64,000 nucleotides of DNA, taken from contig NC_135809.1 in NCBI RefSeq assembly GCF_964213995.1, positions 91,698,001-91,762,000 of the forward strand. Direction: 5' to 3'. The position numbers were made by a program, and so were the translations under genes. A model generated the notes under the pieces. That model was not told where the DNA came from and did no database searches. It saw only the letters and a program-made list of their open reading frames with translations. This document shows, one piece after another, positions 4,889 to 53,082 of this stretch (position 1 is the stretch's first letter; each line of letters opens with the position of its first letter). This DNA is from Mustelus asterias (taxonomy: Eukaryota).

Positions 4889-5060
4889 TATCCAAGACAT
4901 CGGAATCCTCTTCAATATCATCATCATCTTCCTAATGTTTTTCAACACATTCATCTTTCAAGCTGGCTTAGTCAAACTGCTAATTCATAGGTTTACAGGA
5001 ACCATTATTGTCACTGGTATTTACTTTGTCCTGAGTGTCAGCTTTCATGTCTGGATTCAG
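4889..5060 (+). CDS. TMEM138: TMEM138 internal coding exon (172 nt)
   Basis: tttttcag|T ATC CAA GAC...TGG ATT CAG|gtatgc. Confidence 0.93.
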
Positions 5061-8000: not shown

Positions 8001-11000
8001 TTCACTCTCATTCCTATTTATGTCAGAATCTGCGGTGGTGGGATATGCGCAGGTACGTGTGGACAGCTGGACTTCAAGCACTTTTCGTCTTCCAACGATT
8101 TGGTAAGTGAGCTGTTGGTAACTATTCTAATATTTCAAGATTGCCTATATTTTTAAGCAATCGTTTGTTGTAGGTACTGACTTTTGTGGAGGTAAGAATC
8201 TTTCAACACTGGTCAGACGTGACCATTCTTCATAAACAAATCCAGACAATGACTTTCAATAAGACACTTAACAGCAGGTGTATTGAAGTGGAATATGATC
8301 CTGTTCTTACAAAGTACATATACACACACCTTTTCAACACGGGACGTTGTCTAACAACCAGGATCAAGAAACCTGGCTCCTTAGCTGAGGCCCCATCCTG
8401 GTACACCTAAATTTGACATAAACTGTGGTTTAATTCTGAGTTCTTCTGTACAGTTCAATTCTATATCAGGTTCTTGGAAACAATTGGAGAGGAAAGGAAA
8501 AGACTGTGCACCAATTCATTTGAGGCATGGAAGGGGTGAAGTATGGTGTTAATCCCTTGACCCTGCCTATTTGTCTCAGTTCACTGCTTCTCCATCCAAC
8601 CTGCCCACATTACATATACTTGGAATATTTGATTTATAATCTTTACTTGAAAAGATGTTTGCGTTAGGGAGAAGGAAAATGCTTCAGCAGTTACAATTGT
8701 TGTGCTTGCAAGACGAGTAAGGACTTTAAAAAAAATATTATTTGTTCGTTGAATGTGGGTGTTGTTGGCCAGGCCAGTATTTATTGTCCATCTCGATTCC
8801 CTTGAGAAGGGGATGGTGAGCTACCTTCTTGAACCACTGCAGTCTGTATGCTGGAGGAACACCTGCAGTGCTGCTAAGGAAGGATGTACCAGGATTTTGA
8901 CTGGAAAGAATGGCGATATATTTCCCAAGTTAGGTTGGTGTAAGACTTGGAGGCGTACTTGCAGGTGGTGGGTGTTCCCATACATCTACTCTTGTCCTTC
9001 TAGGTGGTAGAGGTTACAGGTTTGGAAAAGTGCTGTTGAAGACATCTCGGTGAGTTGCTACAGTGCATCTTGTAGATGGTACTCACTGCTGTCACTGTGT
9101 GTCAGTGGTGGAGGGAGCGAATGTTTAAGTTGGCGGATGGGGGTCCCAATAATACAAGCTGGTTTGTTCTGGATAGTATCATGTGTGTGTATATATATAT
9201 AGTAAGTGAAGAGTATTCCATCACACTCCTGACTTGAGACTTGTAGATGGTAGTTGGGAGATGAGGTACTCTTCTCCAAATTTCCAGTCTCAGACCTGCT
9301 GTTGTAGCCACAGTATTTATATGGCTAGTCCGGTTCAGTTTCTGGTCAATGGAAGCCCTCGGGATATTGATAGTGTGGGATTCAGCATTACTAATGCCAT
9401 TGAATGTCATAGGGAGATGGCTGGTTTCTCTCTCGTTATTGTCCGGTACTTCTGTGGCATGAATATTACCTGCTACTTAATCAACCCAAGCCTGGGTATT
9501 GTCCAAGTCTTGCTGCATTCAGTCAGTGGTTCAGTATCTGAGGAGTCACAAATGGTGCTGAACATTGTGCAATTATCCATGAACAGCCCCACTTTTGACC
9601 TTATAGAATCCCTACAGAGCAGGAGGCCATTCAGCCCGTCAAGTCTATGATTCCCTCCATTGTGATGGAGGGAAAGTCATTGGTGTAACAGCTGAAGATG
9701 GTTCGACTGAGGACACTATTCTGAGGAACTCCTGCTGTGATGTCCCAGGACTGAGATGATTGACCTCCAACAACTACATCTATTTTCCTTTGTGCTAGGT
9801 ATGACTCCAAACAATGGAGAATTTCCCCCAATTCCCATTGACTTCAATTTTGTTAGGGTTCCTTGATGCCATACTCAGTCATAGAGTCATAGAGGTTTAC
9901 AGCATGGAAACAGGCCCTTCAGTCCAACTTGTTCATGCCACTCCTTTTTTTAAAACCATTAAGCTAGTCCCAATTACCCACATTTGGCCCATATCCCTCT
10001 ATACCCATCTTACCCATGTAACTGTCTAAACGCTTTTTAAAAGACAAAATTGTACCCGCCTCTACTACTACCTTTGGCAGCTTGTTCCAGACAATCACCA
10101 GTCTCTGTGTGAAAAAATTGCACCTCTGGACCCTTTTGTATCTCTCCCCTCTCGCCTTAAACCTATGCCTTCTAGTTTTAGACTCCCCGACCTTTGGGAA
10201 AAGATATTGACCATCTAGCTGATTTATGCCCCTCATTATTTTATAGCCGTCTATAAGTTCACCCCTCAGCCTCCTATGCTCCAGAGAAAAAAGTCCCAGT
10301 CTATCCAGCCTCTCCTTATAACTCAATCCATCAAGTCCTGGTAGCATCCTCGTAAATATTTTCTGCACTCTTTCAAGTTTAATAATATCCTTTCTATAAT
10401 AGGGTGACCAGAACTGTACACAGTATTCCAAGTGTGGCCTTACCAACATCTTGTCAACAAGATGTCCCAACTCTTGTAATCAATGTTCTGACCAATGAAA
10501 CCAAGCATGCTGGATGCCTTCTTCACCACTCTGTCCATCTGTGACTCCACTTTTTAAGGAGCTATGAACCTGTACCCCTAGATCTCTTTGTTCTATAACT
10601 CTCCCCAACGCCCTACCATTAACTGAGTAAGTCCTGCCTTGGTTCGATCTACCAAAATGCATCACCTCGCATTTATCTAAATGAAATTCCATCTGCCATT
10701 CATTGCCATTCAACTGGCCCAATTGATCAAGAACCCGTTGCAATCCTAGATAATCTTCACTGTCCACAATGCCACCAATCTTGGTGTAATCTGCAAACCT
10801 ACTAACCATGCCTCCTAAATTCTCATTTAATATAAAGGATGAATAACAGTGGACCCAGCACCAATCTCTGAGGCACACTGCTGGTCACAGGCCTCCAGTT
10901 TGAAAAACAACCCTCGACAACCACCTTCTGTCTTCTGTCATCCAGCCAATTTTGTATCCATTTGGCTACCTCACCCTTGATCCTGTGAGATTTAACCTTA

Positions 11001-12085
11001 TGCAACAACCTACTATGTGGTACCTTGTCAAAGGCCTTGCTAAAGTCCACGTAGACAACATCAACTGCACTGCCCTCAACTACCTTCGGTCGGTCAAATG
11101 CTGGCTTGATGTTGAGGGCAGTCACTCTCACCTTACCTCTGGAGTTCAGCTCTTTTGTTTGTGTGTGGACCAAAGTTGTAAGGAGGCCAGAATCACAGAA
11201 TTGCTATGGTACAGAAGGAAGCCATTTGGCCAATCATGTGTGCACCAGGTTTCCAAAAGAGCATCATGACTTAGTGCCATTCCGTTGTCTTTTCCCTATA
11301 CCCTGCACATTGTTTCTATTCAAATAATCATCAAATGGCCTCTTGAATGCCTTGATTGAATCTGCTTCCACCACACTTCCAACAGTTGGCCTATACACAG
11401 CAAATTCCCAAAAGGACATGATTAACAGTGATTGGTCGAAGGTTTGAAATCCTATCATAATACATTGTCACTAATGACACAATCTATCGAAGTACATGTA
11501 TTACTTCCACTCTGTCTGCCCTGATATTTCTTTCCTCTACTCAAAAGTCTGACTCCTGCTTTGGTACAGTTTTTTAAAAAAGCACCAAGCATCCTCCAGT
11601 ACCACCTCATAGTAGTCTTGAGTCTGGACAGTGAGTATTTCAAATTCTTTGACTTTGGAAGACACCATTGCTGAACATGAATTTGGTCCTGCCCTTTGCA
11701 CTTTGTAACAACAATCGGCATTGATTCGGCCTAAGCACTTCCATGCTAAGTGGAGAGTGTGTTGAGGCTATGTGCAGTAGCCTGATGAATTAACTTGGCG
11801 TGGATCAGGAACTGAACCTGGGGCTTCCTGGTATGTAAAATTGTGTTATACATGGTCTGAGAAAAACTTTTGATTTGTTTCTACAGATGTCTTGAGCCTG
11901 TTACTGTAGAAAGTTTCAGATTATAATTCCATCAAGCACTGACCTGAAACTTTTGATTTTACCACTCTCTAGGTGCTGTTTTATACTATTACTTCTACAA
12001 AAGAACTATCCTCTGCCTTGGAGACCCTCGATTATATGAAGACTCAGAATGGCTTCGAAATGAATTCTTTCGTGTCCGAAAATAA
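4889..12085 (+). CDS. TMEM138: Transmembrane protein 138 (ciliary/Joubert gene), 5'-partial; join(4889..5060,8027..8102,11973..12085)
   Basis: Spliced translation [119 protein letters not shown] closely matches vertebrate TMEM138. Boundaries are canonical AG/GT with compatible phases (172/76/113 nt). First coding exon not found in the window. Confidence 0.95.
5690..5830 (+). mobile_element. Penelope-like GIY-YIG C-terminal remnant (second family)
   Basis: Translation [26 protein letters not shown] resembles the PLE endonuclease C-terminus. Confidence 0.6.
6680..6975 (+). mobile_element. tRNA-derived HE1/V-SINE-like element
   Basis: ggcacggtggcacagtggttagcactgct..gggttcaattcc (A/B boxes); tail tgcactgtaggattctatg. 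Other copies at ~14712-15040(-), 17068-17410(+), 25186-25482(-) and 57958-58270(+). Confidence 0.8.
8027..8102 (+). CDS. TMEM138: TMEM138 internal coding exon (76 nt)
   Basis: tgtcag|AAT CTG CGG TGG...CGA TTT G|gtaagt. Confidence 0.93.
8740..11190 (-). mobile_element. Nested LINEs: CR1-like family B interrupted by another CR1 (~9880-11085)
   Basis: RT remnants in ORFs 9102..9410, 9631..9831, 9964..10470, 10480..10878 and 10823..11173; the inner element's tail is catagagtcatagag. Confidence 0.8.
11973..12085 (+). CDS. TMEM138: TMEM138 last coding exon
   Basis: ctctctag|GT GCT GTT TTA TAC...CGA AAA TAA. Confidence 0.93.
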
Positions 12086-13842
12086 AATGACGGTGTGACA
12101 AATGCAGTGATGCATAACACTAAAAACTGACTGTTACACTTTTTTATCTGAGTAAAAAGATGCTTCTAAATTTGTATGAATTTTCTAGCTATATTTTTGA
12201 AAAAATATACTTTGGGAACTGCTGTACACTAATGTGCATATTGTTTCTGAACTCTAGTAGTAAGAGTTGGAAATTCTGAGTACTTCACTGCTAAATCATG
12301 CGGTTGCCATTAGTTGTTTATGTCAAATGGGTATTAATTTTGCTGCAATCTTACCAAACGGACTGATTTTCTTTACAAAAGCAAAATACTGTGGATGCTG
12401 CAAATCTAAAACAACAGAAAATACTCAGGAGGTCTGGCAGCATCTCTGGAGACAGAAACAGACTTAATGTTTCAGATCACTGACTCAGAACTCAGTCAAT
12501 TAAACTTTTTTAATGTGCAAATTTTGTTGACAGTTTTTTCCCCCTTTTGTACTACTTGTCCCTGAAGACACTTCCTCTTTCTGGGGTACAATTCTGTGGC
12601 AGTGGTATATGGGCTTTTTTGAGAGATCGAGGTTACTGAATGTCAGCATTGTTTGGCTATTGAGGGTATCATTGTACATGTTGTTTGTGTCTTCACCCCA
12701 AGGTTTTTACATTTACTTATTAGGGTACTTACTAATGACATCCCTTGATGCCCACACGTTTACTTTTCAACAGCAGTTCTAAATAGTGATCAGGAGGGGA
12801 ACATAGACCTTTCTATTTCCATAGACCAATGATAGCAGTCTATAATGAAATAACTCAGTATAAATGGAGTTTACCCTGCAGCTAGACTTGTCTAGCTTAA
12901 TGCTGCACTGTGTGGTGAAGGTCGAGGTGTTTGTCTTTTAATTAGTGTTTAAATGTATTAATACCCAGTAAGTGTTCAAAATGAATAGACACTAATTATG
13001 ATCATTGTAAAGCTTCAATACTGCTCAAAATTTCCCACTAATTGTCAATGCTTTTGCTAATTGGTAAACTGTACAGTATTGCCTGAGGGAAAGGGGAAAT
13101 AATATAGTTACTCAACCCAACTCTTTTTTAAAAAAAAAAACTTCATTTGGGACATAAAGATATGATGAGTATATACCTACCAATTCTCCTACATGATTTT
13201 TAAGTATTAGGAGGGCCATTTTTAAAGGAGTCTGGGAGGAAATAACACATGCATTTTGTAAGATATCCCACAGGAAGAGCAGCCAATGAATGGGGAGGCA
13301 CTGCACACACTATTGATTCAGTACTGGCTTAATGAGTTCTACTTTTGGAGTGTGTTTCCACCAGCAATCTGACAAGAAAGGCGAGGTACCAAAGATCCAT
13401 TTATGGGACAAAGAAGGCCAAGTCTCTGAATTAGCAGAGTAATCTGCAATTGTTTTGAGTTTTTACTGTTTTCATTGTATTTATGTACTTAGAATTTTTA
13501 AAAATATTTTTACTTTTTTAAAATCATCATGAAAGAAGTGATACTTGGATTTGCTCAAATGTACAATTCCAATTCTGACTTTGTTTTATAATTGAAAAGG
13601 ATATTTTGTAGTAATAAATTATATCCATACTTAATTGCCATTCTTCTATTAGAACACGCGTGGCTATTTTATGTAATCTTGTCAGTGACTTTGCACTTTG
13701 AAAACTTTTCTAATAGATTTTTTTTCCAGAAAATGTGTGTAAAATGGTTGTTTTTCTATTGCCTATGTAAAGGAAACGTTCAAAAGTTTTATGTGGTGTC
13801 AGTGTAGTGAATTTTCTGTTCAGCTTTTTATTTATCCAGTCC

Positions 13843-13848
13843 AATAAA
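13843..13848 (+). terminator. Candidate TMEM138 polyadenylation signal
   Basis: AATAAA followed by a U/GU-rich tract (ttgttctctcgttcgtattctgtct). Another AATAAA lies at 13613-13618. Confidence 0.4.
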
Positions 13849-14234
13849 TGAGACATTGTTCTCTCGTTCGTATTCTGTCTCATTTCATTGGCAGATTTAA
13901 TCATTACAGTTTGGGCTTTTTAAATAATGACAGAAGACCAAAGTACACTTCTCCAAGTGAGCTTCAATCTGAGAATGTATATTTTAGGTTGCTTGACTGA
14001 GGATTTGTTGCCCTAATGCTGCACACTGGAATCTGAAGTTCTCATTTAATATCTTGTCTGGAAAGGGGCCAATATCAAACATTAGATCTTAAATTAAAAC
14101 AATTGCTTTAATTTATTTATAATTAGATGATTTACAGAAGGAAATATATTAAGCAAATGCAAGTTTAAGCAAATGCAAGTTACAGCAAAAGGATCTGGAA
14201 GTAGTCCACAAAGGACTTAATCCCATAAATTTGT

Positions 14235-20451: not shown

Positions 20452-20456
20452 GCAAA

Positions 20457-20466
20457 ATGGCGCGAG
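20457..20466 (+). CDS. TMEM216: TMEM216 exon 1 coding part (MAR+G)
   Basis: caaaATGGCGCGAG|gtgagt in a CpG-rich promoter; strong Kozak context and donor. Confidence 0.85.
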
Positions 20467-23400
20467 GTGAGTGAAAAGGTGGAGGTGAGGAGAATGAGGC
20501 TATTTGGGTGATGGCGAGAGGAGGGTTTGGTTGTGTTTGTTTCGGTGGCTGTCAGTGTGTGTGTGTGTGTGTGGGGGGGATGGGTGAATGGGGGGGATCT
20601 TTGTGTGTGTTGAAGTTCTATGTATGTGTGTCTCTGTCTGGGTGTATAGTAGGTGTATCAGTGGGTATCCAGTTTTAGAGTATGAAGTGTCCCAGCCCCG
20701 AAGAGCACATTTTATGCACTCACAATTCTGCACAGTCCTACAGCCAGCCAGTACCGAAAAGAGATTAATGAAATCCACCCACCTAATTATAAATTGCACA
20801 CTAAACTGATAACCTTGCAATGGAAACCTAGTCAACCAGTATTGGCTGGAAACATAGCTCTGCCTGGATTTTGTCCACTTGAGCATATTCAATGCTGAAT
20901 TATAACATCTTGCCATGTAAGATCAGCGGATACCGCAAGGATTAAGTCTGGACGTTCCTCGTCTGTCTAATGCTGTACCAGGCCACATGGTGTATTTTCA
21001 AATTGAGCACTTCCAGGAACTTATCTGCAACAATTTTAATGTCTTTTGTTTTCATTTGCAGCAAAACCTCCTCCAGTTGTATCCTTTTGTAATTTAAGAT
21101 TGGTGCAAAATTCACTCTTTTGCAGCTGCAAGCACAAAAAGAATCGTGGATTGGAATAGGACAACAAATGAGAATTGAAGTGTTGCTCTTCACTTCTGAG
21201 ACCTAGCTTCAAAGCCTCCCTTCTGCTGACATTTCCACATGAAATTAACTCTAGGTTTTTTGAACTTGGTTGATATGAGCCAACAGGACAAAGCAAGTTG
21301 TACTGAATTGACTGCCTCTTCGAGAAATTGTATCACTAGAAGATTAGACCAACACTGAAGTTCTTTTGAAATAATATAAGCTGCAGTAATAACATTTGTA
21401 TGTGGTGTTTCCTTAATGTTTTTCATCAGCTCTCCTTGTCTTCAATGGAAGTTTTGCTATTCCTGAATACCTGGTACTATGCTGCTTACTTTGTGGCAGA
21501 GATCCTTCTTTTCATATACAAAAGTAAGTTTTGAATCCTGGTGTGAGCGTATTTTAAATATGTTTTCTCTCTTTAATTAATGCCAACAGAACAATGTTGA
21601 TCACATTATTTTGTAATTAGTGAAAAAGTGTTTCTATATTTTGCTCTTTGATCATTTTATTGAAAAAATGTATTTTATGTCCATACTTTTTGCAGCAATT
21701 TTTAAATAGAGGAAAATGCAATGCTTACAATTTTTCTAAATTATATTCCTAGCAGTAAAATGAAAAATTCAGTCAAAAAATAAACATTTCAATTCAAGAC
21801 TGAAAACTCATAGTTTTTTCTTGTGATTTGTCATAAGAAATAGGAACAGGAAAAGGCCGTTCGGCCCCTTGAGCCTGCTCTGCCATTCAGCACGACTGTG
21901 GCTGATCCAACATTCTTCACTTACCTGCCCTTTCCCATAACCCTTGATTCCCTTACTGATCAAAAATCTATCTCAGCCTTAAATATGCACAATGTCTCTG
22001 CTCCCACAGTTCTCTTATGCAAGGAGTTCCAAAGACTTACAACTCTCTGAGAGAGGAAATTTCTCCTCATCTCCATCTTAAATTGGCGCCTTTTATTCTG
22101 AGACTGTCCCATGAGGGGAAACATCCTCTCAGCATTTACCCTGCCAAGCCCTTTAAGATTTTTATATATTCCAGACATGTCGACTGCCTGTAGAAAAAAA
22201 CTGAACATTAAAACAGTCTCCTTAAACATAAAAATATATATATACTTATAGGAATAGCACACTATCATCACAATCCCCACTGGGTACAGGTCCCCAACCT
22301 GAAAAAGAATCTCTTAGCCCCACCCACTGTTTCCTGCCCATTAGCCAATTCTCTAGCCATGCCTAGACTACCTCCAACACTGTGGACTCTTATCTTATGA
22401 CTTAACCTTTTTGAAGTACCTTGTTGAATGCCTTTTGGAAGTCCAAATACTCTACTGGTTCCCCTTTAAACACTCTTTTGAGGCTCCTCGAGAATCTCTA
22501 ATAAATTAGATATGATTTGCCTTTCATGAAGCCATGCTGACTCTGCTTCATTAGATTATGATTTTCCAAATGTACTTCCTTAATAATTGATTGCAACATT
22601 TTTGCAACAATAGATGTTGCCAGTGATACTTGATGGGGTACGATTCCATCAGTGCCTTCCACGCCTTTTTTTACTGGCCATTCTTTACATATTGGAGTAT
22701 CTTTCTACGTAAAGATGTTATATACTTTGTCATATGAGTCCACAGGTAATTTTCAGAGGTCATCACTGCTCAGATCAATCCTATTCTGTTTAGTTTACAT
22801 TTTCCAGCAGCATAACAATTGGAAATAGCTTATATGGTATATATCAGGGTAAGGCTGCTGAGGCCTCAGCCCCACACAACTGCTTATCTGGCTAATCATG
22901 CTTTCTCAGCACACATGGACCATAAAATCTTAAACTCTCGTAGCTGCACAACTTGATACCACATCATGGATTACAGAAACCCAAAGAACCAAATCTTTGA
23001 AATACTTAAAGTCAAACCTGGAGATTCATGCTGTTTTGTTGATTGTTTCACCAGCTTCTCCTAAAATTAACAACATCGAACTTGATGTCTCAACAAGTTT
23101 AAACAGTGAGTGACTGAGCTATAATATAGATTTCAGGTTTGATATCTACGCTGTTCCAAAATTGTTAATCTTAGCCACGATGGTTAACATTCCTATTTCT
23201 GATTATTATTTAAAAATCCCTATAGAATACGTGTGTCTTGGTTGTGATGCTGCTACAATTGAACTGAACATTGATTCCCAGGAGTAAAAATCTGATGTGA
23301 ATAAATGTCCATAAGGGATAGTACACATGGTACTGGACCTGTCAAAGAACTTTAGGAGAGAAAATTTAGTACAAAGTAGTAGAAAAAGTGCAAGATGAAT

Positions 23401-41329: not shown

Positions 41330-41490
41330 TTGTCCTCCCCGCGCTTAGGGGGCGCTCTCCTGTCTGGGTGCAGTGATCCCTTGACGTGACCATTTGCGCG
41401 GAATGATGGGATACTGGAGGACTCGTGGTCGAAGAGATGGCGCTGCGAAAAGGTGGGGGAGCAGTGGACGCGTTGCTATCCCAACCAAAG
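41330..41490 (+). promoter_or_regulatory. TMEM80 promoter region with CRE-like site and X-box-like motif
   Basis: Local CpG enrichment; TGACGTGA at ~41382; GTTGCTATCCCAAC at 41472-41485 just inside intron 1. Confidence 0.5.
41437..41452 (+). CDS. TMEM80: TMEM80 exon 1 coding part (MALRK+G)
   Basis: gaagagATGGCGCTGCGAAAAG|gtgggg in a small CpG-rich region with CRE-like TGACGT upstream. Confidence 0.75.
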
Positions 41491-44400
41491 TGCTCTTGGT
41501 CGCCCTAAATAACTCTACAATAATACGATTGAGTTTAAAGATTGGGGTTTGTGAGAGATCGCAGTCGGAGCCGCACCGACTGAGAAATTTGCTTTGATTT
41601 TAAGGAGACGAACTTTGTTGCACATTGTAAAATGATTTGGTGAAAACATTTTAAAGCGCGTTACAAATGCATTGGGGATTTCACTTAATTTTTAATGGAG
41701 ACATGCAGAATAATGTTTATTTCTACCTCAAGCATCCCAATCCTATCCTAAAGATCCTATCCTTGTTGGGTCTAGTTTTACGGGTATTAATAATCCTCTT
41801 GATATCTTTGTGTTTGAGCTGAGATAGTGAGTTTCCCCCAAACTGCGGCTAGATGGTAGGCATATTTTCCCAATATCTATATTTTTGCGACAAGAATAAT
41901 AGGATAGCGATCTGGAGTGGGAATCCTGACAAATATTTCTTCACTTTTTTAATAGCCTAGGATGCTGAGAATGCAATATCTCAATTTAGATCAGCTGACT
42001 ATACAGACTGGGAATCGAATTTGGGATGTTTTGAAATTAAATGCTCAGTTACTTGCTGCCTTTTCCAGCTGCGCCATCTGTGCAATATTTTGGTTTCTTT
42101 ATTTTAATCATTAAATCTCACTTGCTGCATTATCAGCCAGCGGATGACAATACTGATATTGCAAACTTGGCATTATTGGCATATCATGGAAAAGATATTC
42201 ACTAATGCGATGACAATATCTCTCCCTCAATGTCAACAAAATGAAAGAGTTAGTCATCAACTTCAGGAAGCATAGTGGAGGATATGCCCCTCTGCATCAA
42301 TGGGGACGAAGTAGAAATGCTTGAGAGCTTCAGGTTTTTAGGTGTCCAGATCACCAACAACATGTCCTCGTTCCCCCAATGCCGACACTAGAATTAAGAA
42401 AGGCCACCAACGCCTCTACTTTCTCAGAAGACTAAGGAAATTTGGCATGTCCGCTTTGACTCTCACCAACCTTTACAGATGCATCAAAGAAAGCATTCTT
42501 TCTGGTTGTATCACAGCTTAGTATGGCTCCTGCTCTGTCCAAGACCGCAAGAAACTACAAAGGGTCGTGAATGAAGCCCAGTCCATCACTCAAACCAGCC
42601 TCCCACCCATTGACCTTTCTACATTTCCCGTTGCTTCAGAAAAGCCGCCAACATAATGAAGGACCCCATGCACCCCGGACATACTCTCTTCCACCTTCTT
42701 TCATTGGGAAAAAGGTACAAAAGTCTGAGGACATGTACCCAACCGACTCAAGAACAGCTTCTTCCCTGCTGCCATCAGACTTTTGAATGGACTTACCTTG
42801 CATTAAGTTGATCTTTCTCTACACTCTAGCTATGACTGTAATACTATATTCTGCACTCCTTCTCTATGTATAGTATGCTTTGTAGAGCGTGCAAGAAACA
42901 ATACTTTTCACTGTATACCAATACATGTGACAATAATAAATCAAATCAAAATAAACCCTATTTGCCAAACAGCTAGTATAAATTAATTTGGAAATCATCT
43001 ATATATGCAAAATCACGTTGATGAAATTGGTGTCTGGCTCAATCACCTCCAAGAAATGGTTATTGTAGAAAGATCATAGAATGGTTACAGTGCACGGGAG
43101 GAAGCCGCTTCTCTTGTCATGAATGTGCTGTCTCTCTGCAAGAGGAGCTCTGTTAGTCTTACTGCCCCACCTTTCCTCTTATTCCTGCAAACTTTTTCTC
43201 TTCAGGTAATGCCCCCTTTCAAAGATATAATAGAATCTGCCTCCATTACACCCTCAGGTAGTGCATTCCAGATCACAACCACTCACAACGTAAACAAGTT
43301 TTTCTTTAATTTGCTTGTTTTCCTCTTTAATCCAGGGGTCTATTACAGTTTGTAGTGTTTTCACTGTGGTTGTTGAGATAAATTGAAAATCCAAATCAGT
43401 CGTGGAATCTAGGGATGCATATGTGGAATTTTTTTTCCTCAGTTAGCCTATTATTAAATGCCGCTGTTTCTCATGAAAATTACCAGCCTTCTTGTCTGAT
43501 TCAAATAGGATATTTTATATTTCTATGACAATTATCAAATTGAAAAAGCTAAGTTTTAATTAAAGATTCAGTTATTGTGCTTCCAGTTTTTTTGCTAATC
43601 ACCTTAGATCATTGTCTCTCAGCCCTTCCATCAACTTAGGCTGTGTCTAGAGAGAGCATTTTGAGTTGAACAACTTTAGAGTTACGTCTAATGGTTAAAG
43701 GTTTTGCCATATGTGCTGGTAGAGGGTGAACAATTTGAGATGGTAAATTTAAAAACATAAGTACGCTGGAGAAAGTTAAAAGAGTATTAGCTTAAATTTT
43801 TTTTCCCTTTAGTATATTGGTACTAATTAATATTAAGTATTTTGTTTACATTAGTATTATTAATTCTCTGTTTTGCTTTACAGTGAAATCTGCTGTTGTT
43901 GTATCCTTTGGAATAAAATGAAGTGTGCCACCCAGTTTCAGGAGCTGACGTCTTGCAGTCCATAAGAACATAAGAAATAGGAGCAGGAGTAGGCCATCTG
44001 GCCCTTCGAGCCTGCCCCGCCATTCAACAAGATCATGGCTGATCTGAAGCGAATCAGTTCCACTTACCTGCCTGCTCCCCATAACCCCTAATTCCCTTAT
44101 CGATCAGAAAACTATCTACCCGTGATTTAAACATATTCAACGAGGAAGCCTCCACCACTTCAATGGGCAGAGAATTCCAGAGATTCACTACCCTCTGAGA
44201 GAAGAAGTTCCCCCTCAACTCTGTTCTGAACCGGCCCCCCCTTATTTTGAGGCTGTGCCCTCTAGTTCTGGTTTCCCTTCTAAGTGGAAAGAATCTCTCC
44301 ACCTCTACCCTATCCAGCCCCTTCATTATCTTATATGTCTCTATAAGATCACCCCTCATCCTTCTAAACTCCAACGAGTACAGACCCAATCTGTTTAATC

Positions 44401-47400
44401 TCTCCTCATAAGCCACACCCCTCATCTCCGGTATCAACCTGGTGAACCTTCTCTGCACTCCCTCCAAGGCCAATATATCCTTTCGCAAATAAGGGGACCA
44501 AAACTGCACACAGTACTCCAGTTGCGGCCTCACCAGTGCCTTGTACAGTTGTAGCAAGACCTCCCTGCTTTTATATTCTATCCCCCTCGCGATAAAGGCC
44601 AACATTCCATTCGCCTTCTTGATCACCTGCTGCACCTGCAGACTGAGTTTTTGCGATTCGTGCACAAGGATCCCCAGGTCCTTCTGCACAGTCGCACGAT
44701 GTAATTTTTCTCCATTTAAATAATATTCCAATTTACTATTATTTCTTCCAAAGTGGATAACCTCACATTTGCTAACGTTATATTCCATCTGCCAGATCCT
44801 CGCCCACTCGCTCAGCCTATCCAAATCTCTCTGCAGACTTTCCGCGTCCTCCACGCAATTCGCTTTCCCACTCACCTTCGTGTCATCAACAAACTTGAAT
44901 ACCCTACATTCAGTCCCCTCCTCCAGATCATCTATGTAAATGGTAAACAATTGAGGCCCCAGCACCGATCCCTGCGGCACGCCACTGGTCACCAACTGCC
45001 AACCAGAAAAGCACCCATTTATCCCAACTCTCTGCTTCCTGTTAGATAGCCAATCCCCAATCCACGCCAATACCTTACCCCTAACTCCGTGTACCCCAAT
45101 CTTCTGCAGCAACCTTTTGTGAGGCACCTTATCGAACGCCTTCTGGAAATCTAAAAACACCACATCCACCGGTTCCCCTCTGTCAACCGCACTAGTGACA
45201 TCTTCATAAAAGTCCAGTAGATTCGTCAAACACAAGCCCAGCTCAGCTCTCTTAAAGGCATGAATTCTAATACAAAATGTATTCCACAATGTACCAACGG
45301 CAGTTAACATTTGGGGTTGGTGTGGTGATTGAGGAGTTTCCTTGTGAGTCTGTGAAGGAGAAGTTCTTCTTCAGAGAAAATGCATTCTGCCTTCCAATCT
45401 GCCATTTTGTGTTTTTGGTTTCACACATTTTTAAGTAATTCAAAAACATTTCTGTCAGTTATTGCTAACTCTTGCATTTTATGATTTGTTCCTGGGAGGT
45501 GAGCCTCTCTGGCAAGGTTAGCATTCCTAACTCCCCTTGAGTCAGTGATGGTGAACCAGTACAATCCATCTGGTCTAGATACATTCACAGTGCTATTAGA
45601 GAGGGAGATATAAGATTTTGACTTGGTGGCTTTCAAGAAACAGTGACATAGTTCCAAAGTGATGTGTGGCATGGAGAGAAACTTGTAGTTGGTAATGTTC
45701 CCATGTGTCTGCTGCCCTTGTTCCTCTAGGTGGTAGAAATGGAAGGTTTGGAAGGGTGTTGAAGGAGCCTTGGTGAGTGCATCTTGTAGATGGTATGTAC
45801 TGCTGCCACTATGAGCCAGTAGTGGAGAGTTAACGTTTAAAGTAGTAGGTGGGTATTGATCAAGTGGGATGTTTTGTCCTGGATGATGCGAGTTTCTTCA
45901 GTGTTGTTGGAGAGCTGCACTCATCAAGGCACTTGGTGAATATTCTATCATATTCCCTGAATTGTGCCCTGTCAATGATGGATAGGCTTTGTTGAATCAG
46001 GTGAGTATGCACTGCAGAATTCTTAGCCTCTGATCTCCTGTTGTTGCCATAGCATTTATATGGCTGGTCTAGTTAAGTTTTTGGTTAAAGATGATCCCCA
46101 GGATGTTGATGGTGGGGTATTCAGCTATGATAATTCTGTTGGGTCCAAAGCTAATGGAATAACTCCAACATCTTGCTCAAATAGATTATTTTTATTTGTG
46201 AGCAACTGCAGTTTGATTCTCTTCAAAATCAATCTTTTTGCACATTCCTTTTGTTATCTAACTATTCTGCAGCCTGCTATTTGCTTGAAATTTGGGAATG
46301 GCCTTGAGATATTTACTTAAAAGAAGTATATAAATACAAATTATTGATCCTTTGTGGTGAGTGGCAGCAGATTGTTTAACTATGGAGAGTCAAACTCAAT
46401 GCTGTCCTTTCCAGCAGTGGGCATTGGATGTGTTGGCAGTGGGAATCGTGGCTGATTTTTGCCGCCCAAAAGAGGAAAACGATCAATTGTATCAGCACTG
46501 CTGCCAACTGAGTTGATAACATTTAACAAAGCACAGACCCGGACCTATTTGCTGCACGTAGTGGCCACATTAGAAGATGTATTAAATTAAGTCACCTCTC
46601 AGAATTTTAAAAAAAAATCTGGTATTAAGTATTAAGCAGGACATCTTTTCAATGCGCCTCAATAGATTGATTGAGCAATCCCCTCTCTGGGAATCAGCAT
46701 TTTCTATTTTAAATCCCATTTTCAGGAATGAGAAAATGAATTCTCAGCTGTTTTAGACTAAACTTGAGAGGTAAGTATGAGATTTTATCTTTGTAACTTA
46801 GTTGCAAAAACAAAAAGAATCAGTGACTGGTGGTTTCCATCTGTTTCCTGCATGGAACAAGGGCTGCTTACAGTACTTATTGTAAGAAGTCTCACAACAC
46901 CAGGTTAAAGTCCAACAGGTTTATTTGGTAACAAAAGCCACTAGCTTTCGGAGCGCTGCCCCTTCGTCAGGTGAGTGGGAGTTCTGTTCACAAACAGGGC
47001 ATATAAAGACACAAACTCAATTTACAAGATAATGGTTGGAATGCGAGTTTTTACAGGTAATCAAGTCTTAAAGGTACAGACAATGTGAGTGGAGAGAGCG
47101 TTAAGCACAGGTTAAAGAGATGTGTATTGTCTCCAGACAGGACAGTTAGTGAGATTTTGCAAGCCCAGGCAAGTCGTGGGGTTTAAGATAGTGTGACATG
47201 AACCCAAGATCCTGGTTGAGGCAGTCCTCATGTGTGCGGAACTTGGCTATCAGTCTCTGCTCAGCGACTCTGCGTTGTCGTGTGTTATGACAACGCAGAG
47301 TCGCTGAGCAGAGACTGATAGCCAAGTTCCGCAAACATGATGATGGCCTCAACCGGGATCTTGGGTTCATGTCACACTATCTTAAACCCCACGACTTGCC

Positions 47401-50400
47401 TGGGCTTGCAAAATCTCACTAACTGTCCTGTCTGGAGACAATACACATCTCTTTAATCTGTGCTTACCGCTCTCTCCACTCACATTGTCTGCACCTTTAA
47501 GACTTGATTACCTGTAAAGACTCGCATTCCAACCATTATTTTGTAAATTGAGTTTGTGTCTTTATATGCCCTGTTTGTGAACTGAAATCCCACTCACCTG
47601 ACGAAGGAGCAGCGAGCGCTCCGAAAGCTAGTGGCTTTTGCTACCATATAAACCTGTTGGACTTTAACCTGCTGTTGTGAGACTTCTTACTGTGTTTAAC
47701 CCAGTCCAACGCTGGCATCTCCACATCATTACAGTACTTACAGTAGTTTGTAATTTTTAGCAAGTTGGGTTGCCATGTTTTACCAATTTTCTTAATTCAT
47801 TTTTGCTTAACATGAGACATTTCCAAGGCCAGCATTTATTGCCCATTTCTAGTTGTCTTTAAGAAGGTGGTGATAGGCTGCCTTCTTGACCCATTGCTGT
47901 CTATTTGGTGAAGGTACTCCTAATTGCTACTAGGTAGGGGAGCTCTGTGATTTTGATCTAGGAATCTAGAAAATCCAGCCAGTTCAGAATATATACTGTC
48001 AGCGGAACAGAGACAGAGTTTACGGTAGAATCATGGCTTTACCTGACTTCTGGCTTTTGCCTTTTGGTGTTTAAAAAGTCAGCAGAAGTCCAAAGACATC
48101 AATAACTGAACTCTGCAGTGGATGATTTATTTTGCAATGTACTGTAAAATCATAAATCGCTTTTTGCACTCACATTTATGATTTCAGTGCATTGAATGTG
48201 GAGCAGAAATGTTTTCCCTTGTTATAAAACACACAAATTAGTTGGAAAAAGTGGACTTCTGATTTAAAAATTAGACTTTTGTTATCCGGTTTCTCTCTTC
48301 ATAATTTCCAGATACCAGGTCAGAAATCCTGGATGAAAACTCAGTACACTTGGTCCTGTAAAATTGTCTAAGATAATATTTGTAGTTTTCATTGCAGCAA
48401 TATTCCTTAACCACATCACAACAGCTCTCCTCCATCCCTCTACAGATAGTTTATTATTTCAACATGTTTTATTATTCATTTTATTTTCTTGCTACTTTGC
48501 TAATGGTTATCTACAAAAGTAAGTTTTACATTTGTAACTGTTTTGCTATAACTATTTATAATCATAGTATTTAAAGCATTGAGTCAAGGAATTATTTTCT
48601 TTTCACGTTTTAGGTCAAGCTTTCAGTTTTCCAGATGGTAATCTGGCCTTGGATCTGATTCTTCTGATTCTCATGGTAATACTGGAAGTGATAAGGCTAT
48701 ATCTTGGTAAGATGTTGCTTTAAATTATGTTGTATCACCCAATTGATGCTCTGTGGTATTACTACTGGTAGCCTGGAATTTGAGCACGGTTTTGATATTT
48801 AGTTGTAATTGTGTTCAGCCCCACTTGTCTTTTCAAAGGCTAGTGCTCAGAAATCTGTGGTCATTTTGGTGCTAATTGTTACTGTTGAAGTTTTCCTCGA
48901 TTTGTTCCTTCCCTTAGGAAGAGTATAGGTAGGTTATCTATGTTTGAAAGACAGCAGGATTGAATTTCTTTTTTTACACTTTCTTAAATAATAAATTGTT
49001 AATTTATAAAGATTACTTTCTGCCAATTGGGTACGAGTTTGAAACATGTTTTTTGTGTGATAGTGATTGCAAATCTGATGCTTTAAGGTGTGATAGATAT
49101 GTACTAAATATAATACCAGATGTTATGACATCCATGAAGGACACAGGGAGTCATCAATAGATCTCCCCATTGGCTTTGTGAAGTATGAACTTCTTTATTG
49201 AGGAAATCCAATGGGAAATGAGCTGCGGGTGATTAATATCTATTGCTCTAACCCGGACTGTTGTTGTAGGCCCCCAGGTACAGACTTGCTTGTTGTAAGT
49301 CGGGGGTGCGACTCTTCTTTTGGTTTCCAAGAAGGGTTTCTGGTGACGGGGAACTGGCCTTGGCTGAATTACTACACCAGATATACTATTACGTTATCCA
49401 TTGCTTTTCTAACTAGTGGCGTCATGCCATGTAACACAGTGGATCATCAGGAATGGATAAATCAATTTGTGTTTTTGTTCCATGTTGCTTTGGGATTTTT
49501 GCTCCTGTTTTGGGGATCAAGTTCCATATCGTTGCCCAATTTTCTGTGGAAACTGTAAATCAGTGGTTTTGATCATCATTATACATGTCTTCACTAAGTA
49601 CACAATTTTGTTTTACACAAAATAAACTTTATTTCAGGTAGCTAGTTTTATTATTGTAAATTCAAACAGGAAAACAATCAAGAATTTAACACCCAACAGT
49701 AAAAAGAGATTTGTCTTTTTCAAAAAAATCTTAATTGAATTCTCAAAAGTATACTTTTAAATTAATCTTTTGTGAAGTTGTTGTACATTTGATTGCTTGA
49801 TTGCACAATATCAGCAGGTAGTGAAATATCCAGGTTCCTTGACATGAGTGTATCTCCATTTCTAATTTCTGCCAACTTATTGATTCAACAAGGGAAGTAT
49901 TCGAGGCATAATTCACTTCAGTACAGGTGACCTTGGAAAGGGAAAAGTTCATGCTCCTGATCACTATCTAATAACTCCTGCTGGAATGGGTGGCTTTGTA
50001 GATATTGCCTTGATAGATTAATAGCTCTTTTTTTTTTATTCTTATGTGAAATAGTGCCCTCCTGTCAGGCCACTTGTGTATGTATGTATATATGTACAAC
50101 TGGATTAAACTAATTTCACTTTTTTACCAGATTCCATGTTGTACAGCTTCTATTCTGGGAGGATATCACAGTCTGGCAACAAGATGGGATACCGATTCCC
50201 TAGCCAAGCTAATTTGGGTTGGAAAAGCTTCCAGCTAACCAACTGAGTGTTCTTTCTGTGAGAATAGGTTTCAAAATCTGGTTTTAGAGATGGATAGATT
50301 GACCAAAGGTGGCTGCCTCAGCAGGTATTATTGAGAGACTGGGATGTGCAGCCATGCCTGAGAGTGTCTGGAGTATTTAGAGATTCTTGAGCTGCTCACG

Positions 50401-53082
50401 AATTTGCTTGCAACATCAAAGACGAAGGCCAAGCCACTGGCGAATGGCACTACAGTCCCAAGTGATTGGAGGTCGCAGAAAGCTATTGTTTCAGAGCAAG
50501 GAATGAGTTGCCCAGTGAAGACTTTGGAGAGTTTATCATGTTTTTGAAAAAGTTGCTATTTATTGCAATTTTGGAGAATTTCAAGAGAACATGTTACAAG
50601 ACAGATTTCATTTGGTTTAAAAAGTCAACACATTCACAGTAAGTTGATGACATTGCCAAAGTTAATTTTCAACATAGCTTGCCAGACAGCTTTGTCATGG
50701 ACATGGCAGAATGTGAGAGAAGTTAGAGTTAACAACAGTCAGTCATCCTCTGAAGTAAATAAGCTGCAGTTAAATAAGCAGAAGGCCTCAGTGACAGCAG
50801 TTTTTAAAAAAAATTATTCAAGGGATATAGGCTTTGCTGGCTAGGCCAGCATTTATTGCCCATCCTTATTTCCCTTTGAGAAAGTGGTGGTGAGTTGCTT
50901 TCATGAACTGCTGCAGTCCTGTGGTGTAGCTACATCCAAAATGCTGTTAGGGAGGGAGTTTGTGGAAGGGGTGTGAATGAAGCGGGTTGCTTGGTCCAGG
51001 AGGGTGTCAAACAGGCTGTTAACCACACCATTTTTGATAAAGTATCATGAAAAGATTTTGAATTTTTTTACTTCTTTAGAAGCATGTGAAAACCAAGAAC
51101 AAGTAATTGATCTGTCAAGCCAATATCTATAAAGCCACCTATCGCAGCAGGAGTCATTAGATAGTGATCTGGAGCAGGCATATTTCTCTTTCGTAGCTCA
51201 CCTGTGCTGAGATGAATTGTGCTCCAAATACGAAACCAGCTAAGTTGGCACAGACATAGCTTGAACCGGAGATCTTCTGGTCTATATGGCTTAGTGCTAC
51301 ATTAAGCTATATGGCTGCTTTGGGTTTGCATACAATAAAATTGTATGTGCATGTGACTTTAAATGTAATGGGTCTCCAAAGTTGAGGTGTTGAAGCTCTG
51401 TTCTTTCCCTAGGTTTAAAAGGTAACCTGACGGAAGAGGCGGTTCCAATTGTTACTAGCCTGGTCCTGACAATTGGAAATCTGTTGCTTTGTCTGTACTT
51501 CTTGTTCTGGCAGACCTATGTGTTGAAAGCAGATGTAATAATCAATGCAATCCTCCTGGTAACCTATGGACTGGAGGGGATATTGGATATAATTGTCATT
51601 TCAGCTTTTGCCAGGTAATTTGATCAATTGGATCTAATTTTAAGTTCTGAAGTCAATGACACTAATACAGCATTGATAGCTGCTAACTGTCACCTTTTTT
51701 TCCCACAAGGACACATCATTTAGGAGTTTAATGTACCTGTTGGAATACTGTAACTGGCTCAATTAGTAAAGGGAGTGTGTGATTGAACCAAATAGATTAG
51801 GTTCAATCCCTCTCATATGTTTATTTCAGTAAGGACCTTATGAGTGTTAAAAGTTGACATCAGTCAGGGTTTCCATTCCTGATCACAATCCTCTGATTCC
51901 TGGTGGAACAGTACATGTGGCTTAATATTGTACAAACATTTTTGGAATACAGTTTTTTTTCATGCTTTAGGTGAGGGTGGCAAATAGAAAGCTTCCATTT
52001 TGAGCTTTCAATTTAAGATACAGAGTTGTTACAGAAAAATACCATCAAAACTGTATCATACACAATCCAAGGTTGCACATGGAATGGTAAGGTGTAATAC
52101 TTCCAAGTTGTGGATAAGATGGTTAGATGCAGAGCAAATCTTCCTGAATGATCCATGGAACATTTCTAGGTTGGCTTTTAATGGGTTAGATACAAAATAA
52201 AACCTCGATTCCAGGATAGAAATGTGCTTCAGCCTCAGAAGTAAGTACCCCTCTTGTAAAAAATTCCCATTTCTCACACCAACAATCTATTGGAGTAAAA
52301 GTACCAATTTGTACTGAATTATATGTAGTTGTGTGTTCTGGACAAAAATTTACCAGGACTTGGATTGTGACCCAAACTCAATTTACACAGAACCCTAAAA
52401 AGCATTTGGACATCAGAGGAACTTATTCTTTCTTGACTGGGTTACAACTCAATGATATAGAGATGCTGGCATTGGACTGGGGTAAGCACAGTAAGAAGTC
52501 TCACAACACCAGGTTAAAGTCCAACAGGTTTATTTGGTAGCACAAGCTTTCGGAGCGCTGCTCCTTCATCAGGTGAGTCAACTCACCTGATGAAGGAGCA
52601 GTGCTCTGAAAACTTGTGCTACCAAATAAACCTGTTGGACTTTAACCTGGTGTTGTGAGACTTCTTACTGTGTTTACAACTCAATCCCAGAGAGTAACTA
52701 CTTAGTCTGACTCACTGATTCATCTTGTACTCAATTAGCCAACAATTCCTGTCTTGGATGAGCTACTAGATGATTATCCTAGGAGTTAGCAGAAATTAGC
52801 AAAAGAAACATTGGATAGATTTTGAAACGTAACTGTGGAAGTGGTATAGTGTTAGATGCTATTCTTTCAGTGCTGGATGTGGAGTTAAATCCAGCTCAGA
52901 TATATAAAATGGCTTTCACATATACTCTTATTTGTGGATAATGACTTCACTTTAAGCAAGCGGGAAGTATTCTTCAATGTTTTGAACTTTACTGGACTAT
53001 CTTTTCAATTTGATTTCAGTAGTGCTGTTCAAAGACATTATGGTATATCTTATCTTGTATTTTGCCCAGGTTCTACGCATGA
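41437..53082 (+). CDS. TMEM80: Transmembrane protein 80 (TMEM216 paralogue), ~144 aa; join(41437..41452,43884..43900,48425..48518,48614..48706,51413..51614,53070..53082); alternative end by read-through stop at 51618
   Basis: Translation MALRKVKSAVVLSSIPLQIVYYFNMFYYSFYFLATLLMVIYKSQAFSFPDGNLALDLILLILMVILEVIRLYLGLKGNLTEEAVPIVTSLVLTIGNLLLCLYFLFWQTYVLKADVIINAILLVTYGLEGILDIIVISAFARFYA*. Motifs LSS.PLQ, YFLATLLM..YKSQ.FS.P, RLYLG..GNLTE and WQ..VL.AD match TMEM80 rather than TMEM216. Confidence 0.88.
42215..42950 (+). mobile_element. Rex1/Babar-like LINE 3' fragment
   Basis: Encodes remnants [21 protein letters not shown] and [29 protein letters not shown]; tail caataataaatcaaatcaaa. Confidence 0.72.
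43884..43900 (+). CDS. TMEM80: TMEM80 17-nt microexon (V-K-S-A-V-V)
   Basis: ttttgctttacag|TGAAATCTGCTGTTGTT|gtatcctttg (U12 donor); phase 1 to phase 0. Confidence 0.85.
43961..45232 (-). mobile_element. Young 5'-truncated CR1 LINE with uninterrupted RT C-terminal ORF
   Basis: ORF 44054..45310(-) contains [22 protein letters not shown](V)DDTK and [10 protein letters not shown]; 3' tail (TTCTTATG)n; CpGs retained. Confidence 0.93.
45480..46135 (-). mobile_element. CR1-like family B 3' fragment
   Basis: Homologous to 8740-9400 and 58400-59058. Confidence 0.7.
46880..47728. mobile_element. Palindromic Penelope-like insertion (two ~400-bp inverted arms) with 12-bp target-site duplication
   Basis: Arms are mirrored around ~47285; TTACAGTACTTA flanks at 46868-46879 and 47729-47740. 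Confidence 0.85.
47594..47634 (+). ncRNA. Minimal hammerhead ribozyme (Penelope)
   Basis: tcac-CTGACGA-A-GGAGC..GCTCC-GAAA-GCTA-gtgg; mirror copy on the minus strand at 46938-46974. Confidence 0.72.
48425..48518 (+). CDS. TMEM80: TMEM80 exon 3 (94 nt)
   Basis: LSSIPLQIVYYFNMFYYSFYFLATLLMVIYK; A|gtaagt. Confidence 0.92.
48614..48706 (+). CDS. TMEM80: TMEM80 exon 4 (93 nt)
   Basis: SQAFSFPDGNLALDLILLILMVILEVIRLYLG; tag|...|gtaaga. Confidence 0.92.
51413..51614 (+). CDS. TMEM80: TMEM80 exon 5 (202 nt; reads AGG TAA to 51618 if unspliced)
   Basis: GLKGNLTEEAVP...IIVISAFA; tag|...AG|gtaatt. Confidence 0.92.
52454..52673. mobile_element. Miniature palindromic Penelope-derived element with two back-to-back hammerhead motifs
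   Basis: ~90-bp inverted arms centred at ~52580; flanking direct repeat TTACAACTCAAT at 52442-52453 and 52674-52685; hammerheads at 52541-52576(-) and 52583-52618(+). Confidence 0.8.
53070..53082 (+). CDS. TMEM80: TMEM80 candidate last coding exon (R-F-Y-A-stop)
   Basis: tcttgtattttgcccag|G TTC TAC GCA TGA; downstream AATAAA at 53572-53577. Confidence 0.5.

What the first reader, a model, noticed from the sequence alone, without database searches (positions are those of the whole stretch)
4889..53082. Three-gene ciliary cluster TMEM138-TMEM216-TMEM80 in tandem
Seen: TMEM138, TMEM216 and a second TMEM216-family gene lie head-to-tail on one strand. The two paralogues have identical internal exon sizes (17/94/93/202 nt) and phases. 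Known: human TMEM138 and TMEM216 form a co-regulated Joubert locus on 11q12, while TMEM80 sits separately on 11p15. I recall the TMEM138-TMEM216 linkage being reported for basal jawed vertebrates, so linkage itself is probably not new. Inference: this is the ancestral arrangement in which TMEM80 arose by tandem duplication of TMEM216, and the co-regulated module had three genes.
Basis: partly seen in the sequence, partly recalled or inferred. Interest (0 to 1): 0.75.

Follow-up and report, generated by a model that had tools for sequence, protein, structure and literature searches.

The report
Shark three-gene cilia cluster, already described
Three cilia genes (TMEM138, TMEM216, TMEM80) lie in a row in this shark, a likely ancestral layout that I recall was already published for elephant shark; the one extra is that both sister genes carry the same rare "minor" intron, which TMEM216 likely lost on the way to reptiles, birds and mammals.

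Summary
Observation confirmed. TMEM138, TMEM216 and TMEM80 lie head-to-tail on the + strand. The two paralogues (144 aa each, 41% identical) share internal exons of 17/94/93/202 nt and all five intron phases. The third gene is a true TMEM80 orthologue (tree support 100/100); a shark-specific duplication is rejected (AU p=0.00025). The cluster is most likely not new: Venkatesh et al. 2013 (title seen, text not held, content recalled) reported the three-gene tandem in elephant shark. Co-regulation of all three is untested; each gene has its own promoter with an RFX X-box-like motif (strong for TMEM216, weak for TMEM80). Human TMEM80 is listed as U12-containing and human TMEM216 is not (PMC9992838 supplement). 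Protein N-termini (18/18 chondrichthyan versus 0/21 amniote TMEM216 keep the junction residue) suggest loss in the amniote stem. TMEM80 also occurs in rays, bichir, sturgeons, bowfin, a catfish and coelacanth, against a published 'tetrapod-only' claim. Mostly known biology plus a modest new detail.

The parts
4889..5060 (+). TMEM138 second coding exon (172 nt); the ATG exon is outside the window at G000:C9:91694586-91694713
8027..8102 (+). TMEM138 third coding exon (76 nt)
11973..12085 (+). TMEM138 last coding exon with stop; protein 162 aa
20438..20451 (.). RFX X-box-like palindrome 19 nt before the TMEM216 ATG, beside a GC-rich CpG island with 14-23 nt tandem repeats (20055-20315)
   Evidence: (only exact match of the pattern in 214 kb); consensus recalled; function untested
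20457..20466 (+). TMEM216 (gene B) coding exon 1, 10 nt
   Evidence: spliced protein identical to P0024
21062..21078 (+). TMEM216 17-nt micro-exon
21079..21429 (+). TMEM216 intron 2, U12-type GT-AG, 351 nt, phase 0; donor GTATCCTTT, branch site TTCCTTAAT 21 nt before the acceptor
   Evidence: consensus from PMC2831892
21430..21523 (+). TMEM216 exon 3 (94 nt)
25940..26032 (+). TMEM216 exon 4 (93 nt)
30238..30439 (+). TMEM216 exon 5 (202 nt)
34827..34845 (+). TMEM216 last coding exon with stop
   Evidence: matches the end of P0024
41437..41452 (+). TMEM80 (gene C) coding exon 1, 16 nt, in a small CpG-rich patch
   Evidence: N-terminus agrees with named shark TMEM80-like proteins
41472..41485 (.). 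weak X-box-like motif in TMEM80 intron 1 (2 mismatches; seen with only 1 of 6 pattern settings)
43884..43900 (+). TMEM80 17-nt micro-exon
43901..48424 (+). TMEM80 intron 2, U12-type GT-AG, 4524 nt, phase 0; donor GTATCCTTT, branch site TTCCTTAAC 22 nt before the acceptor
48425..48518 (+). TMEM80 exon 3 (94 nt)
48614..48706 (+). TMEM80 exon 4 (93 nt)
51413..51614 (+). TMEM80 exon 5 (202 nt)
53070..53082 (+). TMEM80 last coding exon with stop; AATAAA at 53572
   Evidence: a contig of run X1 covers 53066-53592
55538..62021 (-). Downstream neighbour SDHAF2 (Sdh5 domain exon 56624-56740; last exon starts at 55668; putative ATG exon about 62004-62021), convergent with TMEM80; ends approximate
   Evidence: only Sdh5 match in the genome; joint 55668-56626 in 4 of 4 runs
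62319..62372 (+). First coding exon of a CPSF7-like gene, head-to-head with SDHAF2 at a CpG island
   Evidence: gene name recalled from the N-terminus, not tested with a tool

Best explanation
This is an intact TMEM138-TMEM216-TMEM80 row in a shark, likely the ancestral jawed-vertebrate layout, in which TMEM216 and TMEM80 likely arose by one tandem duplication before sharks and bony fish split. Shown: gene structures, orthology of both paralogues, identical exon sizes and phases, U12 signals in intron 2 of both. Inferred: each gene is transcribed from its own promoter, probably under RFX control in ciliated cells, and encodes a small membrane protein of the ciliary transition zone (function carried over from mammals and worm, PMC4794247). 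Both paralogue pre-mRNAs would need the minor spliceosome to join a 17-nt micro-exon to exon 3; retention of that intron brings an in-frame stop after 26 (TMEM216) or 6 (TMEM80) intron codons (read from the sequence). Later, in the bony-vertebrate line, TMEM80 likely moved within the same ancestral chromosome to its DEAF1/EPS8L2 neighbourhood and kept the U12 intron, while TMEM216 stayed beside TMEM138 and likely lost micro-exon junction and U12 intron in the amniote stem. The linkage of TMEM80 is best read as a relic of the duplication, not as a proven three-gene regulatory unit.
For: Tree of 52 proteins, 142 columns: gene C inside a 21-row TMEM80 clade (100/100) with caecilian, turtle, bird and mammal proteins; gene B inside a 19-row TMEM216 clade (98/91). 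Holding the 11 chondrichthyan rows together costs 100 log-likelihood units, p-AU 0.00025. Identity of C: 64% to coelacanth TMEM80, 47% to coelacanth TMEM216, 41% to B, 24% to the genome's TMEM17-like gene. Exon sizes and phases match between B and C but not with the TMEM17-like gene. U12 donor with 0 mismatches in 2 of 13 introns, both intron 2; the other 11 have 3-7 mismatches; best branch-site matches (0 and 1 mismatch) are in the same two introns. The 12-mer across that junction occurs exactly twice in the window, against a mean of 0.01 in 100 shuffles (pattern chosen after seeing it). Human TMEM80 isU12 TRUE, TMEM216, TMEM138 and TMEM17 FALSE (PMC9992838 supplement). Val/Ile at the junction: 18 of 18 chondrichthyan, 2 of 2 lamprey, 7 of 10 parsed (12 given) non-amniote bony, 0 of 21 amniote TMEM216 proteins (isoforms and close relatives not independent). 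Flanks: a cytochrome b561 gene on the minus strand 55-59 kb before the window and SDHAF2 downstream match the human TMEM138/216 locus (human order recalled). No TMEM80-like relic (best E 0.46-0.48) in 150 kb before the DEAF1-like SAND exon or 170 kb before the EPS8-type PTB exon on the same contig.
Against: Adjacency was tested in one genome only. For 14 of 14 other species compared by eye, TMEM80 and TMEM216 sit on contigs of equal length, which shows the same chromosome, not adjacency. The key prior paper could not be read. The lamprey protein groups with TMEM216 (95/83), which would date the duplication earlier, but the gnathostome-only alternative is not rejected (p-AU 0.092). The TMEM17 outgroup is one very long branch (3.54), so the root is weak. 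The amniote loss is inferred from protein N-termini and one human table, with no amniote DNA examined; 3 of 10 non-amniote bony proteins also lack Val/Ile, and the two osteoglossiform teleost proteins have a shorter spacer. The TMEM80 X-box is weak.
Confidence: 0.85

Rival explanations
1. The three genes form one co-regulated module driven by shared intergenic enhancers, as described for human TMEM138-TMEM216, and TMEM80 was part of it until it moved.
For: Human TMEM138 and TMEM216 share an RFX4-dependent intergenic element (second-hand passages). All three shark genes have an X-box-like motif near their 5' ends with one pattern setting (chance about 0.05 per 400 bp each). All three are transition-zone genes. 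TMEM138+TMEM216 fused gene models exist in 3 of 383 fetched proteins.
Against: The motifs are promoter-proximal and separate, which fits parallel RFX control without linkage. Between TMEM138 and TMEM216 (12085-20300) only 1 of 6 pattern settings gave a hit, one site with a mismatch. In human cells a TMEM216 promoter variant did not change TMEM138 expression (PMC11393691 passages). TMEM80 works apart from the pair in humans. No expression data were tested.
Confidence: 0.2
2. TMEM216 and TMEM80 arose by whole-genome or dispersed duplication and were brought next to each other later in cartilaginous fishes.
For: They lie far apart in humans (recalled). The human neighbours of TMEM80 (DEAF1-like, EPS8-type, transaldolase genes) are on the same shark contig, 4.4 and 18.5 Mb away, so local rearrangement on this chromosome has occurred.
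Against: It needs a move that lands a gene exactly beside its sister, same strand, 6.6 kb apart. No relic at the presumed donor sites. Recalled: coelacanth and lamprey data in Venkatesh et al. support ancient linkage.
Confidence: 0.07
3. Gene C is a chondrichthyan-specific duplicate of TMEM216 that only resembles TMEM80.
For: Tandem position and identical exon sizes; one paper limits Tmem80 to tetrapods (PMC4794247, legend of S5 Fig).
Against: Rejected by the AU test, p 0.00025; 23 of 23 hits to exon 5 of C are TMEM80-named or unnamed shark, ray, turtle or alligator proteins, none is named TMEM216.
Confidence: 0.01

Closest known systems
Elephant shark Tmem138-Tmem216-Tmem80 tandem cluster (Venkatesh et al. 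2013, Mol Biol Evol 30:62, PMID 22936720; citation seen, content recalled)
   Same: Same three genes in a tandem cluster in a cartilaginous fish, read as the ancestral vertebrate state.
   Different: Here an elasmobranch instead of a holocephalan. I do not recall the paper noting the U12 intron, but could not check its text.
Human JBTS2/JBTS16 locus TMEM138-TMEM216 (Lee et al. 2012 Science, PMID 22282472; not held, known from passages in PMC12148096, PMC4785524, PMC9169668)
   Same: Head-to-tail TMEM138 then TMEM216, cytochrome b561 gene upstream, SDHAF2 and CPSF7 downstream (human order recalled).
   Different: A third gene, TMEM80, follows; gap 8.4 kb from the TMEM138 stop to the TMEM216 ATG (human about 23 kb); SDHAF2/CPSF7 pair inverted relative to the recalled human order; shark TMEM216 has a U12 intron, human has none.
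TMEM17/TMEM80/TMEM216 family (Pfam PF09799 Transmemb_17) of ciliary transition-zone proteins (PMC4794247)
   Same: Both paralogues are ordinary full-length members, already named TMEM216-like and TMEM80-like in public shark annotations.
   Different: TMEM80 orthologues occur in sharks, rays, bichir, sturgeon, paddlefish, bowfin, a catfish and coelacanth, not only in tetrapods as that paper's S5 legend says.
U12-type (minor) GT-AG introns, including the human TMEM80 minor intron chr11:698889-700141 (PMC9992838 supplement)
   Same: Extended donor and branch-site consensus; human TMEM80 has one too.
   Different: Present in both paralogues here. Lineage-specific loss in vertebrates is rare but known: loss in 8 and conversion in 5 of 180 clusters (PMC2831892).

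Membership tests
TMEM80 orthologue (gene C) | PF09799 domain | tested here: met
   3 of 3 exons tested hit PF09799; exon 5 over the cut-off
TMEM80 orthologue (gene C) | Groups with tetrapod TMEM80 to the exclusion of TMEM216 and TMEM17 | tested here: met
   100/100 clade; shark-only duplication rejected
TMEM80 orthologue (gene C) | U12 intron as in human TMEM80 | tested here: met
   Signals at 43901-48424; human gene listed isU12 TRUE; that the human intron is at the same codon was not shown by a call
TMEM80 orthologue (gene C) | Human-type neighbourhood (DEAF1, EPS8L2, TALDO1) | tested here: not met
   Those families lie 4.4-18.5 Mb away on the same contig; read as later movement, not as evidence against orthology
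TMEM216 orthologue (gene B) | Groups with tetrapod TMEM216 and lies downstream of TMEM138 | tested here: met
   98/91 clade; identical to P0024; position
Transition-zone protein | Localises to the ciliary transition zone | not testable with these tools
   Shown for mammalian Tmem80 in PMC4794247 (passages); inferred for shark
U12-type intron | Extended 5' splice site RTATCCTT | tested here: met
   0 mismatches in intron 2 of both genes, 3-7 in the other 11 introns
U12-type intron | Branch site TCCTTAAC close to the acceptor | tested here: met
   0 mismatches at -22 (C), 1 mismatch at -21 (B)
U12-type intron | Removed at these sites in RNA, by the minor spliceosome | tested here: inconclusive
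   Gene B model equals a public annotated protein; a 948-nt contig of X1 has 423 nt before TMEM80 exon 6, which fits the spliced exons (406 nt plus exon 1), but the joint is not listed; spliceosome dependence not testable here
Co-regulated cis-regulatory module (Lee et al. 2012) | Conserved intergenic RFX4 element | tested here: inconclusive
   No strong X-box in 12085-20300; no cross-species DNA alignment possible
Co-regulated cis-regulatory module (Lee et al. 2012) | Coordinated expression | not testable with these tools
   Only assembled contigs were available, which carry no expression level

The most novel reading that the evidence does not exclude
The TMEM216/TMEM80 ancestor was a minor-intron gene, and TMEM216 stayed under minor-spliceosome control from lampreys and sharks through amphibians, escaping it only in the amniote stem, possibly by dropping the micro-exon and taking a new acceptor 8 nt upstream so that the old acceptor CAG survives as the Gln codon seen in turtle and rhea TMEM216. 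A Joubert/Meckel gene would then depend on U4atac in anamniote models but not in people, and TMEM80 would be the copy that keeps the ancestral control.
Probability: 0.65. Interest if true: 0.42.

Novelty: already known. Interest (0 to 1): 0.28.

Why it matters
The cluster argues that the human TMEM138-TMEM216 Joubert locus is old linkage and not a reptile-age assembly, but that point has been made in print (recalled). What this window adds is small and checkable: a shared minor intron that marks the TMEM216/TMEM80 duplication, a datable loss of it in amniote TMEM216 (such losses are rare in vertebrates), tree evidence against 'TMEM80 only in tetrapods', and a hint of how the locus was rearranged (inverted SDHAF2/CPSF7 pair right behind TMEM80). 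It matters for those who model minor-spliceosome ciliopathies in amphibians or fish, where TMEM216 may be a direct U12 target.

Tried and rejected
Prior papers: Venkatesh 2013 not held by DOI, PMC id or PMID; Lee 2012 not held. Full-text searches: TMEM138+TMEM216+TMEM80 gave 5 papers, 4 listed, none on synteny by title or abstract; searches gave no held paper on the cluster. U12 detail: 'TMEM80'+'minor intron' 0 papers, 'TMEM80'+'U12' 0, 'tmem216'+'minor intron' 2, of which the bioRxiv one does not call tmem216 a minor-intron gene in the passages seen (its supplements are closed and may bear on zebrafish) and PMC12750831 was not read. Supplements of PMC7507305, PMC10639083 and PMC2831892 hold no TMEM80 or TMEM216 rows. 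Intron databases (U12DB, IAOD, MIDB) were not available and may already list the shark or amphibian intron. RNA: no RNA holder listed; contigs of 4 runs laid on 41300-57000 were swamped by repeats and did not list TMEM80 joints; no read evidence was obtained for gene B. No solved structure of the family (4 chance hits, E 0.038-0.49). No Rfam match in the window. P0141 looked like a TMEM216-TMEM80 fusion but is a TMEM80 model with an inserted mobile-element piece. zf-MYND search gave no hit near the SAND exon on C9, so the DEAF1 label rests on the SAND match and recall. The scan's index had nothing near this place or with these gene names. Tree: rows were chosen by hand (52 of 383 proteins, one per species, near full length); a first FastTree run with all near-full-length representatives also put C with TMEM80 and B with TMEM216.
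Full report
Observation. The three genes are real and intact. Scanning for spliceable exons, searching by similarity and splicing by coordinates gave a 162-aa TMEM138, whose ATG exon lies 3.3 kb before the window, and two 144-aa proteins, gene B (20457-34845) and gene C (41437-53082). B and C have internal exons of 17, 94, 93 and 202 nt and intron phases 1,0,1,1,2. Their matching exons are 50-59% identical in DNA without gaps and the proteins 41%. All 9 exons tested hit the expected Pfam family. Gene B equals a public protein named TMEM216-like of Mustelus asterias, so this is a houndshark. The genome gave three PF09799 matches among 28 candidates scored: B, C and a TMEM17-like gene on another contig with other exon sizes.

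Which gene is which. Exon 5 of C found 23 proteins, all TMEM80-named or unnamed shark, ray, turtle and alligator sequences; exon 5 of B found 59, nearly all named TMEM216. A maximum-likelihood tree of 52 hand-picked proteins puts C in a TMEM80 clade with bichir, paddlefish, bowfin, catfish, coelacanth, amphibians, reptiles, a bird and mammals (100/100) and B in the TMEM216 clade (98/91). Forcing the shark and ray copies together is rejected (p-AU 0.00025). The duplication therefore predates the split of cartilaginous and bony fishes. Lamprey groups with TMEM216 (95/83), but a duplication after the lamprey split is not rejected (p-AU 0.092), and the outgroup is one long branch. This contradicts the statement in PMC4794247 (passages seen) that only tetrapods have Tmem80.

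Surroundings. A cytochrome b561 gene lies upstream on the minus strand. SDHAF2 follows TMEM80 on the minus strand, head-to-head with a CPSF7-like first exon at 62319 (name recalled). By recall the human order is TMEM216+, CPSF7-, SDHAF2+, so this pair is inverted, with one edge where TMEM80 stands. Families matching the human neighbours of TMEM80 are on the same contig but far off: an EPS8-type PTB gene with transaldolase at 96.17-96.25 Mb and a DEAF1-like SAND exon at 110.30 Mb (names recalled). No TMEM80 relic was found beside either. In 14 of 14 other species compared by eye the two paralogues lie on contigs of equal length; this shows the same chromosome only.

Intron 2 of both paralogues has the minor-spliceosome donor GTATCCTTT and a branch site 21-22 nt before a CAG acceptor (consensus in PMC2831892, passages). 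None of the other 11 introns comes closer than 3 mismatches to that donor. In the supplement of PMC9992838, human TMEM80 is U12-containing, with more retention in U4atac patients, while TMEM216, TMEM138 and TMEM17 are not. The exon before the intron ends in a Val codon in both shark genes. Val or Ile stands at this place in 18 of 18 chondrichthyan, 2 of 2 lamprey and 7 of 10 parsed non-amniote bony TMEM216 proteins (12 given), but in 0 of 21 amniote ones, where the spacer is mostly two residues instead of five. These rows include isoforms and close relatives. I infer loss of the intron in the amniote stem. Two routes fit: deletion of the intron with three codons, or loss of the micro-exon with a new acceptor 8 nt upstream, in which case the Gln of turtle and rhea proteins is the old CAG. 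No amniote DNA was examined. My searches did not find this in print, but intron databases and closed supplements were out of reach.

Regulation. Each gene starts in its own CpG-rich patch. An X-box-like palindrome 19 nt before the TMEM216 ATG is the only exact match of its pattern in 214 kb. The TMEM138 5' island has a match to another recalled pattern; TMEM80 has only a two-mismatch site. One of six pattern settings finds all three, and it was chosen after I had seen the sites. The stretch between TMEM138 and TMEM216 holds no strong site. This favours parallel RFX control over a shared enhancer, but it is weak evidence either way, and there were no expression data.

How it most likely works. 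Three separately transcribed genes for small membrane proteins of the ciliary gate (function inferred from mammals and worm). Two of them are sister copies left in tandem by an old duplication, and both likely need the minor spliceosome; retention of intron 2 brings an early stop (sequence). TMEM80 later moved away in the line to humans, so its linkage is dispensable there.

Prior knowledge and verdict. Reference lists give Venkatesh et al. [quoted passage not shown] The text is not held. From memory its abstract reports that the two genes and Tmem80 form a tandem cluster in elephant shark, already linked in the vertebrate ancestor; I put about 90% on that recall. Lee et al. 2012 was not held either and is known here from passages in PMC12148096, PMC4785524, PMC9169668 and PMC11393691. 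The finding as given is thus real, correctly read in its orthology, and most likely already known. The co-regulation claim is unproven. The shared U12 intron and its likely amniote loss are a modest addition. Interest 0.28.

Noticed in passing
window 49606-55668, minus strand: Contigs of runs X8, X9 and X10 cover this stretch almost without break from the SDHAF2 last exon and stop at 49606-49615, just past minus-strand polyA signals at 49628 and 49647. This hints at a long (about 6 kb) SDHAF2 3' UTR running antisense over TMEM80 exons 5 and 6. Contigs show no strand or ends, and the runs are not on record as RNA.
   Followed up: partly
window 49897-50033 and 51095-51231: An inverted repeat (137 nt, 79%). 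One X8 contig differs from the window at 14 places, all T>C, 13 of them in the first arm; X9 shows partial fractions and X10 (another organism code) shares several. This looks like A-to-I editing of a minus-strand RNA hairpin; alleles are not excluded without DNA of the same individual.
   Followed up: partly
window 55538-62372: The SDHAF2/CPSF7-like head-to-head pair is inverted relative to the recalled human order, with one edge at the position of TMEM80; the inversion and the relocation of TMEM80 could be linked events.
   Followed up: partly
proteins P0028, P0078, P0265: Public gene models fusing TMEM138 to TMEM216 in frame (cloudy catshark, echidna, one unnamed): read-through transcripts or annotation merges.
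   Followed up: no
window 21400-21429 and about 23070-23125: Public TMEM216-like isoforms of this shark include one starting inside the U12 intron (P0025) and one with an extra 17-residue exon in intron 3 (P0026); several named TMEM80/216 isoforms of other species read Gln just before exon 3, as expected from retained U12 intron ends.
   Followed up: no
window 20055-20315: GC-rich (72-77%) degenerate tandem repeats of 14-23 nt just upstream of the TMEM216 promoter, rich in GC-box-like motifs.
   Followed up: no
L013-L014, G000:C9 about 91798000-91802500: A 4-kb GC-rich (75-85%) satellite of 17-22 nt units, 36-40 kb past the window end.
   Followed up: no
G000:C9:91686200-91687300 (L005): CpG island 11 kb before the window, likely a shared head-to-head promoter of TMEM138 and the cytochrome b561 gene, with three copies of a short repeat and an X-box-like motif.
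   Followed up: partly
window 44057-45370 (-), 23694-24146 (+), 9967-11203 (-), 2087-2713 (-) and others: Many LINE reverse-transcriptase-like fragments and SINE copies fill the introns and intergenic DNA; ordinary shark repeats, labels recalled.
   Followed up: no
G000:C13:98358300-98363100: The genome's only TMEM17-like match; exons of 104 and 114 nt, 24-26% identical to genes B and C.
   Followed up: yes
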